In this document: one piece after another, positions 429 to 60,530 of the stretch
Numbering within the stretch: the stretch's first letter is position 1
How the letters are laid out: every line of letters starts with the position of its first letter
DNA from: the human T2T-CHM13v2.0 reference genome, Homo sapiens
Strand: one strand, 5' to 3'
Length of the DNA stretch: 64,000 nucleotides
Assembly: GCF_009914755.1 (NCBI RefSeq)
Contig: NC_060925.1
The notes under the pieces: model-generated
Told to the model about the DNA's origin: nothing
Database searches by the model: none
The model's input: the letters and a program-made list of their open reading frames with translations, nothing else
Made by a program: the position numbers and the translations under genes

Positions 429-472
429 CTGGTCTCCAAAGTCCTCTGGGAATTTCCACAATACCACAGGAT
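429..472 (-). CDS. DENND1B: DENND1B coding exon 3 (44 nt; DPVVLWKFPEDFGDQ, uDENN region)
   Basis: Acceptor ATTTACAG|AT and donor CAG|GTTGGT; the peptide is visible at the end of ORF 414..620 and is in frame with exon 2. Confidence 0.96.
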
Positions 473-18340: not shown

Positions 18341-20987
18341 CAACAGAATAGGTATCAAAATGCCAAATACCAAATTGGAAAGAGTCTTAATTATGTACCG
18401 CAGATATGCAGTGTCCTACTTCTTTATTTCTATAGACAAACATGATCATATTAAACAAGGAAATTGGGGAAAAAAACAATGAAGAAAAAGGATCAACATT
18501 TTGTACTCACACAACAAGAAAATAAATATTCAGAACTTGACAGAAGTCTATAATGGAGCTTTTTAGGAAAAAGAGTAAATACTAGACATCTACTGTTTCC
18601 TGCATTTATAGTGTGGTCTGCAATATACACTCTTCAAATTATGAAGTTTAAACACCTATGTTTAAGAATAAGCACAAAAAAAAATTAGAAATATGCATGT
18701 ATTATTAGACCTCAAGTATCCACCCCTGACAGTTATTTGCTTAACCTGTTTTTATAAACACAGCATACAAACCTTGATGAATGTTTCTCCTGTTATTCTT
18801 CTACCTTACCCAACACTTTTTCCCCCTTACCAGCTTATTTTACGGTCAGAGGTTAAACTGCTAACCCTTCACCTTCCAGGAAAGTTTTTTTTCCTCTCTC
18901 ATAAAAGGTTTTTCACAGTGTGCAGCAGTCGGATTAGCTCTTCTCTTCGAGAACAAAAGCTCTGTCTTTGTCTTCGTTGTTTGGGCATGGAGCCCCTACA
19001 TCAGAGGAAGCTGCTCCTACTCAACATGCACAATAATGATATTGTGAGGCCCCACGAAAGCCTGGCCTCTCAGTGTCTAGACTCTCATCCAACCAGCTAG
19101 CCAAAGAGAAAATCCTGTCAAGCACTCAGCTGAAAATTAACTAAGGTATCCTGTTGAGAACCTGATGAAGATGTTATTTGACCATACGGTAAAACTTTCT
19201 ATTGTTGAACATAAAGATAAGAGAAAAACTTTTAGAACTCAATGCTTTAACAATCCTGGTCACCAATTCACACATGGGTCAGTAAATGTATTTTACCAAC
19301 ATACAACCCCTTCCTCTATACGTGCTCTTAAAATAATACACAGGCTTATTTATGATATTCTAATCTCTTGCATTTAAAAATCTGTGCAACTAAAAGATAC
19401 ATTCAAAAAATTACAAGAAATTATATTTTATTTGCAGTATTTACATTAAATATTTATCATTAGAAATTCTGCTACTGTATTTTTCACTGAAGGACCCAAT
19501 CAAAATGCAGAAGTCAAAATAAAACTGTCATATCTTTTCATATTCCTGAATAAGTTTTAAAATATTGAACAGAAGAGAAACAGTAAACTAAAAAGTAGAT
19601 AACTGATTAAAACTTAGAAATGAAAAGAGTATATAAACCAAACCATTCTTATAAAAACTATCTGTAAATTTTTTAACCTGTAAAAAGTTAAACACATTAG
19701 ATAAATTTAAATTCAGTCATATGATGGTAGTGAAAGATAATTCTCTCAAGTATATTAAGTTATGGTTGAGTTCATGAATATTTACAAGGGGCTTTGGGGA
19801 CTGCTGCAGTTTATGAAATATTTTGTAATTTAAACCAATAGCAACAACAAATATTGAAAATTAAGTGAAAACTATATATGATTACAACCACATTTAATAA
19901 GCTCATATTGAAATCTAAAAAGGAATACACAAAAATAGATGTTTTGTGTTATTGGTATAAAAAGAAAAATCTTTTTCCTTCTTTCAAAATTGACTGCAAT
20001 ACATTACATTCGTAATTTAAAAAAAAAAACTTTGCAAAATAATCAGAATAGTTCAAAACCCTACAAACAGACAGCAATTAATGAAAGATAAGGGTGTAAC
20101 TACTGTATACAGGATTCAGAATTAAAGAATACATCATTTGTTACATACTCCATAGAGTAATATAAATTGATTTCCCAAATTTTAGGAGAAACATAAATAT
20201 GCTTTTTTTTTAACCTACAACAAACTTAACAAAAGAAATACATTTATTCATAAGGGGGAAAATAATCAATGCTTATACATAGCAGATGTCTGGCATGGAG
20301 GAGTATGTTCCTACTCTTTTAATAGACACATGAAAATCTAAGCCTGGCAAACAAAAATATTTAAATTAAAGACTCTGGAACACAGTGGATAAGTAAGAAC
20401 TGGCAGAAAATGTTAAATATTTCATTCCTACTTCTGTAGAAAAAGCGGACAAAATTTTAACAAAATTTAAAAGAACATTTCATAAAACAATAATATGCAA
20501 TTTTAAGAAAATAGATTTGGTTAAATCTATATTATATATGAATAATACAAAAGTTAACAGAAAGGTACAAAAAACAATATTGAATGGGTCCAACATGCCT
20601 ACCATTGAGTATCTTTTACATCAATGAATTAGCAATCTGTAAAATGATTACAGTACCAAATACATCCACCCAAATACTGGAGGCAGAATGGCTTTATTCT
20701 ACTATACCTCTGCTTCAAGTGGTTTTATTTCCTCAGAATGCTACACAGCTCCACCTTGGCTTTTGGCAATTAAACTAAATAAAATTTAAAAGTCCAAGAC
20801 CTCAGAGAATTCACTGTTAAAAAAAAATACTCTGAAGCTACTTCTCATGGGTTCTCGGGTACATTTCCTTTGTTAGAAGAAGTGATCTAAAGTTTTGCTT
20901 AACAGTTTATGTTTACTTTAGTGTGAACTATGAAACATTCCATTTACAAAGTGTTCTTAGACTTTTATGAATTCTAAAGGGTATTAC

Positions 20988-21039
20988 TCGAAAATACAGG
21001 TTGGGGCCATCTTTTCTCCTCCCGTGGAGCTGCCGCCAT
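20988..21039 (-). CDS. DENND1B: Candidate alternative first coding exon of DENND1B ([17 protein letters not shown]), derived from the antisense RPL24 retrocopy and flank
   Basis: 52 nt from ATG to a TCGA|GTAATA donor, phase 1, in frame with exon 3; agrees with my recollection of an alternative DENND1B N-terminus. Confidence 0.7.
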
Positions 21040-21560
21040 GAAGGTCGAGCTATGCGGTTTCAGCCGGTACAAGGTCTACCCCGGACACGGGAGGCGCTAC
21101 GCCAGGACCGACAGGAAAGTTTTCCAGTTTCTTAATGCAAAATGCGAATCGGCGTACTTTTCCAGGGGGAATCCTCGGCAGATAAGCTGGACTGTCCTCT
21201 ACAGAAAGAAGCACAAAAAGGGACAATTGGAAGAAATTCAAAAGAAAAGAACTTGCCGAGCAGTCAAATTGCAGGGGGCTATTACAGGTGCCTCTCCTGC
21301 TGATATAATGGCCAAGAGGAATCAGAAACCTGAAGTTAGAAAGGCTCAACGAGAACAAGGTATCAGGGCTGCTAAGGAAGCAAAAAAGGCTAAGCAAAGT
21401 ATCTAAAAACACTGCAATGGCTGCTGTTAAGGCACCTACAAAGGCAGCACCTAAGTAAATGATTGTGAAGCCCGTGAAAGTTTCAGTTCTCGAGTTGGTG
21501 GAAAACGCTAAACTGGCAGATTAGATTTTTAAATAAATATTGGACTTAAAAAAAAAAAAA
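21005..21560 (+). pseudogene. RPL24 (eL24) processed pseudogene
   Basis: ORF 21038..21406 [24 protein letters not shown]...; intronless; frameshift near codon 120 plus a later stop; AATAAA at ~21532; poly(A); 15-bp TSD gaaaatacaggttgg (20990-21004) / gaaaatataggttgg (21561-21575). Confidence 0.96.
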
Positions 21561-21768
21561 GAAAATATAGGTTGGAATACTGCAAAACAACCCACTCTTT
21601 TGATTTCAAGCTCAATTTTAAGCTGCAGATTCCAACTTTTATTGAACTTGAATAGCAAAAATTTTGAGTCAGAGATAACATAAGATCTACTCATTTTGAG
21701 ACTTGGGATTAAATGGTTTGCCCAATTCTTTCTACCTGTCTGTCTGTCTCTCTATCTATCTATCTATC

Positions 21769-58259: not shown

Positions 58260-58324
58260 CTTCATTTTCAGAGGCATGACATTTCACTTTCAACACCAAG
58301 TCAAAGGTTCTGTCTGGATTTGCC
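58260..58324 (-). CDS. DENND1B: DENND1B coding exon 2 (65 nt; ANPDRTFDLVLKVKCHASENE)
   Basis: Acceptor CTTTTTCCTTTTAG|G and donor GAAG|GTATGT; phases fit exon 1 (phase 2) and exon 3 (phase 1). Confidence 0.96.
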
Positions 58325-60530
58325 CTAAAAGGAAAAAGTTTAAATTAATTTCCTATGACAAATAAACATCTCCATGAAACTTGTATTTTCTTAATTCTAA
58401 AACTAATCTTGTTTTTGTCTCAATACATTTCATGTGACTGTATTACTACAGTATAGTAGAAATAACAATGAAACTGTTTTCTCAATTGAGCAACTTAAAA
58501 GAGCTGAGACTTAGGAATTCTGAAACTTGGGGCAAAGCATTTAAACGCTGAGACTGTTCTCCCTTACCTATGAGGTGCCTTGTCCACTTCACAGAATAAT
58601 AGTGAGGATTATAAATCAAATAACATATGTGCAAGTACTTCATTAAGTACTAAGTGCTACAAAAATGCAAAGTATTGGTTTTATCTTATTGGATCAAATT
58701 TAAAAGCCAGAGTGTCCCTAAGTGTCATTATACCCTGCCAACAGAGTTTGACACAGGTTCTCAGGCTGTCTCCAAAGGACTTGCAATATAAGTGTAAATG
58801 ATGAATACATGGTTCCACCTGCCAAGTTCTAGATCACCATAAAACATTGATAATGCTCCATGAATGTGATACGTTGCATATACTTTTCTTAAAATGTATT
58901 TACTGTACTTATGCATATTTAAAGTAGCAAACTATTCATAGCTCTAAGGCTAGCAACATAAAAAGCCTTCTTTTTATCCATTATCTTTGGAGAAACCAGC
59001 CATCTGCTTCCATGTTAGATTTTCCCACTAGAAACTGTAAGTTTACTTTGCTTAATTCAGAAGTTATTGACTTTTTTACTAACTTGCCATATTTGCAAAA
59101 TTTCAAAGCAACATTGGTTAAATTTCAAAAAGTGAACTGAAATATACTGAGACACTTTTTCTTCATAACATTGCTGTTTAAATCTCTCGTTCCATCATAA
59201 GGTAAAAGATTAAGTCTGTTACCACAACGGCCAATGTGTTAATATCTCAGTTATTCCTGCTAACAAGACCTTAGTGCCTTTGTACATTGGCTGTATTTAA
59301 TATGTACTTCCTTCAAGAAACGAATGCCAGCTCTGACTTTAAAAAAAAGCATTTCTTTTTTTGGAAGCTTTTCTTATAAGATATGAATCTGGAAACATAG
59401 GAAGTGACAAGACATATAAATTAACATGCAAATATACATTTTTTTAGCCTTTCCGCTATTAACTTGTTTCAATGGGAATAATCTGGGCTCAGATGACTTC
59501 CTCCCTCTTAAAACAATTAATGTCAAGAAGCATACTATTTTTACTCACTTACCCTGCCCACCATGATGTCAAACACACTGAAGAAAATAATTCTATTACA
59601 TAATTTCCCTCTTTCCCTAATATTCTTTAGAATTTCTCTTAGGTGTAAAAGTTAAATATTGACTCAGTTTTACTTCTGTGAAATTCAAACGGCCTTTCAC
59701 AATAATACAAATATACATGGCATTATTTTAAACTTTTTGAGAAGGAGATAGTAAAGGGTGGGTAAGCGAAGTAAAAAGGAATTCTTTCCAAAGTTAAGTT
59801 TCAGAAGAAAAATATAAAACTCATGCCTCTAAGATACCTAGAAACAAAATCACCACCGTTATTAAAATTGCTTTTTACCTAATCTCCTGAGCAAAGTAGT
59901 CGTTGATAAATACTTTAGCACACACATAAAAGTACCCTCTAATTGGATACCGTTTTGCAAGAACCATGCATCTACAGTTGCTGCATAAAGAAACACCAGA
60001 GACCAATCTAATTTTATAAGCAGAATCATAAGAAAACATCCAAGACAAAAGTAACAAACGGACTTAAGAAAACACCGGTTATATTTAATGCTCAGAGAGC
60101 ACTCGGAATAATAACCTCTTAACCTCAACGCTGACTCCCTCCCGGACACCACACGCACACAGGCAGCCCCAGGAGAGTCACATCTGACACACTCGGGGGA
60201 AGCACGAGAACCCCTCAGCGGCGGTGTCAGGGGCCGCCCGGCCTCCCCTGTCCCCCGAAAGGCGGGCGTCGACAAGGCGCTAGTGGCCTCTCCGGGAGGA
60301 GCCGCGCCAACCACGGAGGGCCGGGGACGCAGGGCGGGCAGGCTTTGCGGCCTAGCGCCCTCCCGCCGGCCGGCCAGAGGCTTGGGGGCCGGACCGCACC
60401 CCCAGCCCGCCCGGCCAACCTCGGCCGCCCGGGGAGCCGGTTGAGCGCGGAGGCGCGGAGGAGCCGAGCTGGCCTGGGAGGGGCCGCCGAGGGACGCCCG
60501 CCCCCGACGCGCCCGGGCCCCCCCACTCAC
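58325..60530 (-). other. DENND1B: DENND1B intron 1 (~2.2 kb)
   Basis: GTGAGT ... TTTTAG boundaries; G-runs just after the donor. Confidence 0.93.

What the first reader, a model, noticed from the sequence alone, without database searches (positions are those of the whole stretch)
20986..21040. RPL24 retrocopy read backwards supplies an in-frame alternative N-terminus for DENND1B
Seen: the palindromic CATG at 21037-21040 contains both the RPL24 pseudogene start (+) and an ATG on the DENND1B strand. The minus strand reads [17 protein letters not shown] through the retrocopied 5' UTR and the TSD into a GTAATA donor at 20987. The exon is 52 nt (phase 1), exactly the phase exon 3 needs, giving ...VFS-N-PVVLWKFPEDF. 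Inference: a de novo first coding exon, assembled from retrocopy plus TSD plus flank, replaces the first 27 aa (start of the uDENN module) and could alter GEF folding or activity. I recall an alternative DENND1B isoform with this N-terminus but cannot verify it here; its retrocopy origin is the notable point.
Basis: partly seen in the sequence, partly recalled or inferred. Interest (0 to 1): 0.85.

Follow-up and report, generated by a model that had tools for sequence, protein, structure and literature searches.

The report
Known retrocopy-derived alternative DENND1B exon
An old RPL24 pseudogene lying backwards in an intron of the human DENND1B gene is used as an occasional extra exon that could give the protein a different start, and this origin was already published in 2008.

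Summary
On the minus strand, an ATG at 21039-21037 is the reverse reading of the retrocopied RPL24 CATG. It opens 52 nt that end at 20988 before a GTAATA donor and join exon 3 in frame. RPL24P5 is a typical processed pseudogene with a duplicated target site and an A-tail.

The exon is in RefSeq. Its junction to exon 3 matches, by distance, a splice junction reported in macrophage RNA-seq.

Baertsch et al. 2008 list "RPL24/DENN1B" as an antisense cassette exon with possible alternative translation initiation. [quoted passage not shown]

New here:
- 21198 is a real acceptor, so this is mainly an internal exon.
- Inclusion after exon 2 gives a premature stop.
- The donor is the weakest of seven annotated donors in the window, the start context is weak, and a stronger out-of-frame ATG follows.
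- The first 11 codons were inherited unchanged from the old RPL24 5' UTR.
- The copy keeps unusually many CpGs.

Translation and any effect on exchange-factor activity remain untested. Verdict: real, already known, low interest.

The parts
21006..21547 (+). RPL24P5 processed pseudogene body (5' UTR from parent mRNA model position 13, coding region, 3' UTR)
   Evidence: The + strand translation matches eL24 chains of the PDB at E 1e-63 over residues 1-120 and has 3 in-frame stops after codon 122. It aligns to the six exons of the parent gene on C3 with the introns absent. Identity to the spliced parent model is 92.2% over 540 nt, K2P 0.079.
21548..21560 (+). A-tail of the retrocopy (13 A)
   Evidence: Read directly from the sequence.
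20990..21004 (.). 5' copy of the target-site duplication
   Evidence: the repeat finder family D1, 15 nt, 93% identical to 21561-21575.
21561..21575 (.). 3' copy of the target-site duplication
21005..21005 (+). Single G between the duplication and the first parent-matching base. It is needed for the reading phase of the antisense ORF.
   Evidence: The alignment to the parent starts at 21006. The parent has C at the preceding position.
20988..21198 (-). 211-nt alternative internal exon of DENND1B. A 140-nt form, 20988-21127, is also annotated.
   Evidence: Listed in the hub's RefSeq table. 21198 is preceded by ttctttctgtag, with a pyrimidine fraction of 0.85 in the last 20 nt. 21127 is preceded by no AG.
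21199..21222 (-). Acceptor AG (21200-21199) and polypyrimidine tract, the antisense of Arg/Lys codons of RPL24
   Evidence: The same antisense acceptor is present in the parent and in 8 of the 9 retrocopies compared (RPL24P5 included); it is lost in L002.
20988..21039 (-). 52-nt coding part: ATG plus 16 codons plus the first base of a split Asn codon
20982..20987 (-). Donor GTAATA in unique flank, 3 nt beyond the duplication
   Evidence: It matches 5 of 9 consensus positions and has a U1 duplex energy of -3.4 kcal/mol, the weakest of 7 annotated donors in the window.
21008..21010 (-). Second ATG, out of frame, in a strong context (A at -3, G at +4). Its frame stays open into exon 3.
21050..21052 (-). 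TAG reached by the canonical reading frame when the 211-nt exon follows exon 2
   Evidence: translation of exon 1, exon 2 and the 211-nt exon.
19411..21198 (-). Alternative terminal exon using the same acceptor, with AATAAA at 19432-19427
   Evidence: Listed in the hub's table. The polyadenylation signal was found.
429..472 (-). DENND1B exon 3, the shared acceptor exon
58260..58324 (-). Canonical exon 2. Its residues 7-27 are replaced in the alternative reading.
   Evidence: Its translation matches PDB 3tw8 chain A at positions 8-28, 21 of 21 identical.

Best explanation
This is the already described antisense exonisation of the processed pseudogene RPL24P5 in intron 2 of human DENND1B.

Shown from sequence:
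- An RPL24 mRNA was retroposed against the direction of the host gene.
- Its antisense strand brought a ready-made acceptor, a pyrimidine tract plus AG from the reverse of Arg/Lys codons.
- It also brought an ATG (the reverse of the C-ATG of the RPL24 start) and 11 open codons from the reversed 5' UTR.
- The target-site duplication and 2 nt of flank supply 5 whole codons, the other two bases of a sixth (its first base is the single G at 21005) and one more base. A weak GT in the old intron serves as donor, in the phase exon 3 needs.

Shown from annotation and print: the exon is spliced into a minority of DENND1B transcripts.

Inferred: its main effect is to divert transcripts away from the canonical N-terminus.
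- After exon 2 it introduces a premature stop.
- With the donor unused it ends the transcript at 19411.
- Only in transcripts that lack the canonical ATG can the retrocopy ATG open a protein in which 17 new residues plus Asn replace residues 1-28.

I put the chance that such a protein accumulates to a meaningful level at about 0.3.
For: - Retrocopy anatomy: eL24 match at E 1e-63. The six parent exons are contiguous in the copy. The target-site duplication matches at 14 of 15 positions. The A-tail is visible.
- ORF and phase.
- Acceptor at 21198 and polyadenylation signal at 19432.
- Inheritance of the start: all 4 differences between the copy's 5' UTR and today's parent are shared with at least 2 other old copies. 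Another copy, L007, reads the identical 11 residues on its antisense strand. The antisense ATG is present in the parent and in 7 of the 8 retrocopies that cover that position (RPL24P5 included).
- Print, Baertsch et al. [quoted passage not shown] ORFs are valid only in human and chimpanzee.
- Print, preprint 10.1101/2023.05.29.542728 (passages): a junction of 20,512 nt shares the exon 3 acceptor. In this window, 473-20987 is 20,515 nt.
Against: - The preprint describes that junction as part of the 5' UTR of transcript DENND1B-201, not as coding.
- The mapping of its GRCh38 coordinates to this window rests only on distances: 20,512 against 20,515 nt, and 57,794 against 57,787 nt for the canonical intron.
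[quoted passage not shown] Its Supplementary Fig. 25 was not seen.
- The 396-aa ORF of the 2008 paper could not be rebuilt here.
- I saw no protein-level evidence. Two peptide strings gave 0 papers.
- The 140-nt form starts without an acceptor, so part of the usage may come from an internal start site rather than from splicing.
Confidence: 0.85

Rival explanations
1. The exon makes a functional, selected DENND1B isoform. Its new N-terminus replaces the first strand region of the uDENN (longin) lobe and changes Rab35 exchange activity or partner binding.
For: - The ATG is the first ATG of the 140-nt and 211-nt exon forms, an in-frame stop lies upstream, and the frame is open into exon 3.
- The replaced residues 7-27 are part of the crystallised DENN construct 3tw8.
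- The short DENN-only form of DENND1B is an active Rab35 exchange factor (PMC2958468, passages).
- There are no private substitutions in the 34 retrocopy-derived coding bases. About 2 would be expected at 7% divergence, so this is weak evidence.
Against: - The start context is weak (T at -3), and a strong out-of-frame ATG lies 29 nt downstream.
- There are 6-7 upstream ATGs when the 59879-60xxx leader exons precede the exon.
- The donor is the weakest of 7 annotated donors.
- According to the 2008 paper the ORF is disrupted in orangutan (splice site) and rhesus (start codon), so there has been no long-term constraint.
- No peptide evidence was found.
- The structural consequence was not modelled. 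The structure paper is not held.
Confidence: 0.2
2. The 5' part of the retrocopy acts as an internal, unmethylated promoter. Transcription starts at about 21127 on the minus strand and gives a transcript whose first AUG is the retrocopy ATG.
For: - RefSeq has an exon form starting at 21127 with no AG before it (hub table).
- RPL24P5 keeps 15 of 20 parental CpGs, against 72 of 150 in the 8 other RPL24 copies compared. Fisher p is 0.03. A decay rate fitted to the others predicts survival of 0.39, which gives p 0.001 for 15 or more.
- The 200-nt bin 21000-21199 has GC 0.56 and CpG observed/expected 0.88, inside an intron where neighbouring bins lie at 0.00-0.48.
Against: - A transcript beginning at 21127 could be a 5'-incomplete cDNA of the 211-nt exon.
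- The 2008 paper states that the promoter is shared with the canonical variant.
- No RefSeq functional element is listed here (hub table).
- Reading the sequence, I saw no TATA or initiator motif upstream of 21127.
- The CpG test rests on 20 sites and 8 control copies.
Confidence: 0.3
3. The ORF is a chance by-product with no consequence at all: splicing noise at a weak cryptic site.
For: - The chance of an open 17-codon frame in the right phase is about 0.15 (my arithmetic).
- The donor is weak.
- The macrophage study is about low-usage junctions (titles).
Against: - Six spliced mRNAs are cited in 2008, and several RefSeq models share the same acceptor and donor (hub table).
- The junction's usage is under genetic control and colocalises with the 1q31.3 inflammatory bowel disease signal in the preprint.
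Confidence: 0.15

Closest known systems
RPL24/DENN1B entry of Baertsch et al. 2008 (BMC Genomics 9:466, Table 2, category 1B-5)
   Same: It is the same locus and the same reading: an antisense RPL24 retrocopy exon in DENND1B, alternative translation initiation, and the next coding exon shared with the canonical variant.
   Different: The paper gives no base-level anatomy. Added here: the split of the 52 nt into UTR, one extra G, duplication and flank; the acceptor and its origin; the premature stop after exit from exon 2; the second ATG; and the CpG retention. The paper's 396-aa ORF could not be rebuilt here.
RPS15A/HK1 and RPL18/CSMD3 antisense retrocopy first coding exons (same paper; CSMD3 also in PMC7290577)
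   Same: An antisense ribosomal-protein retrocopy supplies a new first coding exon and a short new N-terminus joined to a shared downstream exon.
   Different: The HK1 ORF is reported open to rhesus. The CSMD3 case is said to use a new promoter and to be testis-specific. For DENND1B the ORF is reported valid only in human and chimpanzee, and the promoter as shared.
Antisense Alu exonisation
   Same: It works the same way: the reverse strand of a retroposed element offers a pyrimidine tract plus AG and weak donors, giving low-inclusion alternative exons. This is established knowledge, and the 2008 paper discusses it.
   Different: The element here is an mRNA retrocopy, not a SINE. The pyrimidine tract comes from Arg/Lys codons, not from the A-tail. 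The donor lies outside the element.
Poison (premature-stop) cassette exons
   Same: Inclusion after exon 2 puts a TAG in the canonical frame, many exons before the end of the gene.
   Different: Classical poison exons are conserved. This one is young, and sensitivity to nonsense-mediated decay was not tested.

Membership tests
Processed pseudogene (L1-mediated mRNA retrocopy) | Intronless copy of the spliced parent mRNA | tested here: met
   Six parent exons on C3 align contiguously to 21006-21544. Parent exon borders carry GT..AG.
Processed pseudogene (L1-mediated mRNA retrocopy) | 3' A-tail and flanking target-site duplication | tested here: met
   13 A at 21548-21560. The 15-nt duplication matches at 14 of 15 positions.
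Processed pseudogene (L1-mediated mRNA retrocopy) | Disabled parental reading frame | tested here: met
   3 in-frame stops after codon 122 of 157.
Antisense retrocopy exon acquisition (Baertsch Type Ib) | [quoted passage not shown] | tested here: met
   RPL24P5 is on the + strand and DENND1B on the - strand, in the intron between 58260 and 472 (hub table).
Antisense retrocopy exon acquisition (Baertsch Type Ib) | Splice sites drawn from the antisense retrocopy or its flank, with the pyrimidine tract from oligopurine codons | tested here: met
   The acceptor ttctttctgtag|AG is the antisense of CTCTACAGAAAGAAG. The donor is in the flank.
Antisense retrocopy exon acquisition (Baertsch Type Ib) | Spliced transcripts that contain the exon | not testable with these tools
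   No RNA data are available here. Print: 6 spliced mRNAs. A macrophage junction of matching length is reported. RefSeq exon models are in the hub table.
Antisense retrocopy exon acquisition (Baertsch Type Ib) | Retrocopy-derived ORF in frame with the host coding sequence | tested here: met
   52 nt, phase 1, the same as canonical exons 1 and 2 at 82 nt.
Poison cassette exon | Premature stop in the host frame on inclusion, upstream of later junctions | tested here: met
   TAG at 21052-21050 in the canonical frame. The selected transcript has 23 exons (hub table).
Poison cassette exon | Transcript stabilised when nonsense-mediated decay is blocked | not testable with these tools
   This needs UPF1 depletion or cycloheximide RNA-seq.
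CpG-island-type promoter | At least 200 nt with GC of 0.5 or more and CpG observed/expected of 0.6 or more | tested here: inconclusive
   One 200-nt bin, 21000-21199, meets it (GC 0.56, o/e 0.88). Neighbouring bins do not.
CpG-island-type promoter | Capped transcript 5' ends and an unmethylated state | not testable with these tools
   No CAGE or methylome data are available here.

The most novel reading that the evidence does not exclude
The human/chimpanzee-specific retrocopy exon is the molecular effector of the 1q31.3 inflammatory bowel disease signal. Risk alleles would shift DENND1B splicing in macrophages towards this exon. That would lower canonical DENND1B, through the premature stop or the early terminal exon, or produce a variant lacking the native start of the longin lobe. 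The CpG-preserved 5' part of the retrocopy would be a germline-unmethylated regulatory element that helps this. The two published strands, the 2008 retrocopy origin and the 2023/2025 splicing QTL, do not appear to have been joined. Searches for RPL24P5 (0 papers) and for DENND1B with retrocopy terms (no listed paper holds both) found no such link.
Probability: 0.2. Interest if true: 0.55.

Novelty: already known. Interest (0 to 1): 0.2.

Why it matters
This is a clean textbook case of how a dead ribosomal-protein copy can hand a host gene an acceptor, a start codon and a few codons in one step. Both the exon and its origin were published in 2008, and the exon is in RefSeq, so it adds no new kind of biology.

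The remaining value is practical. The junction to this exon appears among splicing QTLs that colocalise with an inflammatory bowel disease locus. Knowing that the exon is young, weakly spliced and mostly frame-breaking helps in reading that association.

Tried and rejected
- The search of earlier findings was not open.
- The DENND1B-Rab35 structure paper (Wu et al. 2011) is not held, by DOI or by PMC id. The statement that residues 1-27 include the first strand of the longin lobe is therefore inference from the general longin fold, not a result. PMC3521125 (passages) only confirms that uDENN is a longin domain.
I did not see Additional File 1 of the 2008 paper (genomic locations), Table S5 of PMC7290577 (retrocopies contributing to host transcripts) or Supplementary Fig. 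25 of PMC12391537. All of these may bear on the claims.
- Searches for 'DENND1B' with 'alternative first exon' listed 2 of 3 papers, both irrelevant by their titles and abstract starts and not opened. RPL24P5 gave 0 papers. Two peptide strings gave 0 papers. DENND1B with poison-exon terms gave nothing on DENND1B in the 15 listed papers.
- PMC11568790 only lists DENND1B among genes with splicing QTLs.
- I did not fold the alternative protein.
- Primate dating by alignment was impossible because no primate genomes are held. The age rests on K2P 0.079, roughly 36-79 million years at assumed rates of 1-2.2e-9 per site per year, and on the 2008 paper's report of presence in rhesus.
- I considered 21127 as an acceptor and rejected it, because no AG precedes it.
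- I considered 60099 and 60100 as acceptors of an internal UTR exon and rejected that too, for the same reason.
Full report
**Observation**

- The + strand reads ...gccgccATGaaggtcgag... with CATG at 21037-21040.
- The minus strand reads ATG at 21039-21037, followed by 16 codons ([17 protein letters not shown]) and one further base, A at 20988. Then comes GTAATA at 20987-20982.
- Exon 3 starts at 472 with AT CCT GTG..., so the split codon is AAT (Asn) and the frame continues as PVVLWKFPEDFGDQ.
- Canonical exons 1 and 2 contribute 17 + 65 = 82 coding nt, the same phase. The alternative reading therefore swaps residues 1-27 and the split codon for 17 residues and Asn.
- The ATG is the first ATG in the exon from either annotated upstream end. 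An in-frame TAG lies 13 codons upstream.

**The retrocopy**

The + strand from 21038 translates to eL24. The first 120 residues match PDB eL24 chains at E 1e-63. Three in-frame stops follow codon 122.

The window's own genome holds the parent gene on contig C3. Its six exons align to 21006-21544 with the introns absent.

A 15-nt target-site duplication flanks the copy, matching at 14 of 15 positions (20990-21004 and 21561-21575). A 13-A tail precedes the 3' copy of the duplication.

Identity to a spliced model of the parent is 92.2% over 540 nt, K2P 0.079. At assumed neutral rates of 1-2.2e-9 per site per year, that is very roughly 36-79 million years. The rates are assumptions, not results.

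**Where each part of the exon comes from**

The 52 coding bases break down as follows:

| Part | Length | Window position |
|---|---|---|
| ATG | 3 nt | 21039-21037 |
| Reversed RPL24 5' UTR | 31 nt | 21036-21006 |
| One G matching neither parent nor duplication | 1 nt | 21005 |
| Target-site duplication | 15 nt | 21004-20990 |
| Old intron flank | 2 nt | 20989-20988 |

The donor GT lies in the old intron, 3 nt beyond the duplication.

The copy's 5' UTR differs from today's parent at 4 of 34 positions. Each of the four states is shared with at least two other old RPL24 copies, so the parent changed, not this copy. One other copy, L007, reads the identical 11 residues on its antisense strand. 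The antisense ATG is present in the parent and in 7 of the 8 retrocopies that cover the site, RPL24P5 included; it is lost in L002.

The start codon and the first 11 codons were therefore delivered ready-made by the insertion. They did not evolve afterwards.

**Exon architecture**

This is where the reading needs correcting. The upstream end at 21198 follows ttctttctgtag, a pyrimidine-rich tract (0.85 over 20 nt) with AG. The tract is the antisense of the Arg/Lys codons CTCTACAGAAAGAAG. It is present in the parent and in 8 of the 9 retrocopies compared, RPL24P5 included.

So there are three annotated forms:
- **20988-21198** is an internal exon.
- **19411-21198** uses the same acceptor and ends 21 nt after an AATAAA at 19432, so it is an alternative terminal exon.
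- **20988-21127** has no AG before it. It is either a true start site or a 5'-incomplete cDNA.

**Consequences for reading frames**

If the 211-nt exon follows exon 2, the canonical frame meets TAG at 21052-21050.

If it follows the leader exons that end at 59879, the retrocopy ATG is preceded by 6-7 upstream ATGs, several with long upstream ORFs.

The retrocopy ATG has T at -3 and G at +4. A second ATG, at 21010-21008, has A at -3 and G at +4, is out of frame, and stays open into exon 3.

The donor matches 5 of 9 consensus positions. It gives the weakest computed U1 duplex of the 7 annotated donors in the window: -3.4 kcal/mol, against -4.2 to -9.4 for the others.

These features point to a low-usage exon whose inclusion is mostly non-productive. 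A protein with the new N-terminus is possible only from transcripts that lack the canonical ATG.

**What is in print**

Baertsch et al. 2008 (PMC2584115) is the key paper. I read Table 2 and the section on reverse-orientation exon acquisition in full, plus passages elsewhere. It says:
[quoted passage not shown] - The promoter is shared with the canonical variant, and valid ORFs exist only in human and chimpanzee.
- Pyrimidine tracts in such exons often come from antisense oligopurine codons, which is what I found independently.

The retrocopy origin is therefore published. Because the ATG was inherited at insertion, the rhesus state would be a later loss. That is inference.

**Transcript evidence and the disease link**

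The preprint 10.1101/2023.05.29.542728 (passages) reports two DENND1B junctions that share one acceptor and colocalise with the 1q31.3 inflammatory bowel disease signal in iPSC-derived macrophages.
- One spans 57,794 nt. The canonical exon 2 to exon 3 intron here is 57,787 nt.
- The other spans 20,512 nt. The stretch 473-20987 here is 20,515 nt.

I take the second to be this exon's junction. This rests on distances only, because the coordinates are from another assembly.

The preprint calls that junction part of the 5' UTR of DENND1B-201, which conflicts with a coding start at 21039. It also reports inconsistent effect directions across conditions.

The published version (PMC12391537, passages) names only the canonical junction. 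[quoted passage not shown] I did not see its supplementary figure.

**Noticed here: CpG retention**

RPL24P5 keeps 15 of 20 parental CpGs although its non-CpG divergence is 7.0%. The eight other copies keep 72 of 150. The four of similar age (L003, L004, L006, L007) keep 38 of 82. Fisher p is 0.03 in both comparisons. A decay rate fitted to the other eight predicts survival of 0.39, which gives p 0.001 for 15 or more.

The bin 21000-21199 has GC 0.56 and CpG observed/expected 0.88. Neighbouring bins lie at 0.00-0.48.

This would fit germline hypomethylation, for instance an internal promoter. However, it rests on few sites and has no direct support.

**Function**

The replaced residues 7-27 are part of the crystallised DENND1B construct (3tw8). 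The short DENN-only form is an active Rab35 exchange factor (PMC2958468, passages).

It is inference from the general longin fold that the swap removes the first strand of the longin lobe. The structure paper is not held, and a spliced isoform could not be folded with these tools.

I found no evidence of the protein. Peptide searches returned 0 papers, though supplements and proteome databases were out of reach.

**Verdict**

The feature is real and correctly read, but already known. The exon is annotated and its retrocopy origin was published in 2008.

The added anatomy shifts the likely role from "new N-terminus" towards [quoted passage not shown].

The only lead with some novelty is that this retrocopy exon seems to be the one behind a disease-colocalising splicing QTL. 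The papers I could read do not make that link.

Noticed in passing
window 21000-21199 (and 21006-21551): RPL24P5 keeps 15 of 20 parental CpGs, against 72 of 150 in 8 other RPL24 retrocopies, despite 7.0% non-CpG divergence. The 200-nt bin has CpG observed/expected 0.88 inside a CpG-poor intron. Possible germline hypomethylation.
   Followed up: partly
window 21008-21010, minus strand: A second ATG lies 29 nt downstream of the retrocopy ATG. It has a stronger context (A at -3, G at +4), is out of frame, and stays open into exon 3. It would compete with the in-frame start.
   Followed up: partly
window 19411-21198, minus strand: An alternative terminal exon shares the retrocopy acceptor, with AATAAA at 19432-19427. 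It would truncate DENND1B after exon 2.
   Followed up: partly
window 59879-60448, minus strand: The alternative leader exons that end at the 59879 donor carry 6-7 ATGs with upstream ORFs. Their upstream ends at 60099, 60100, 60398 and 60448 have no AG, so they look like start sites in the promoter region.
   Followed up: partly
L011 (C3 parent gene, exon 1) and loci L002-L008: Today's RPL24 5' UTR differs at 4 positions from the state shared by older retrocopies, so the parent's UTR changed after they formed. Copy L007 encodes the same 11 antisense residues as RPL24P5.
   Followed up: yes
window 21005: A single G lies between the target-site duplication and the first parent-matching base. The parent has C there. 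It may be an untemplated base added at retroposition, and it sets the reading phase of the antisense ORF.
   Followed up: no
literature, not sequence: Two unresolved discrepancies. The 2008 paper gives a 396-aa ORF that I could not rebuild. The 2023 preprint calls the junction 5' UTR of DENND1B-201.
   Followed up: no
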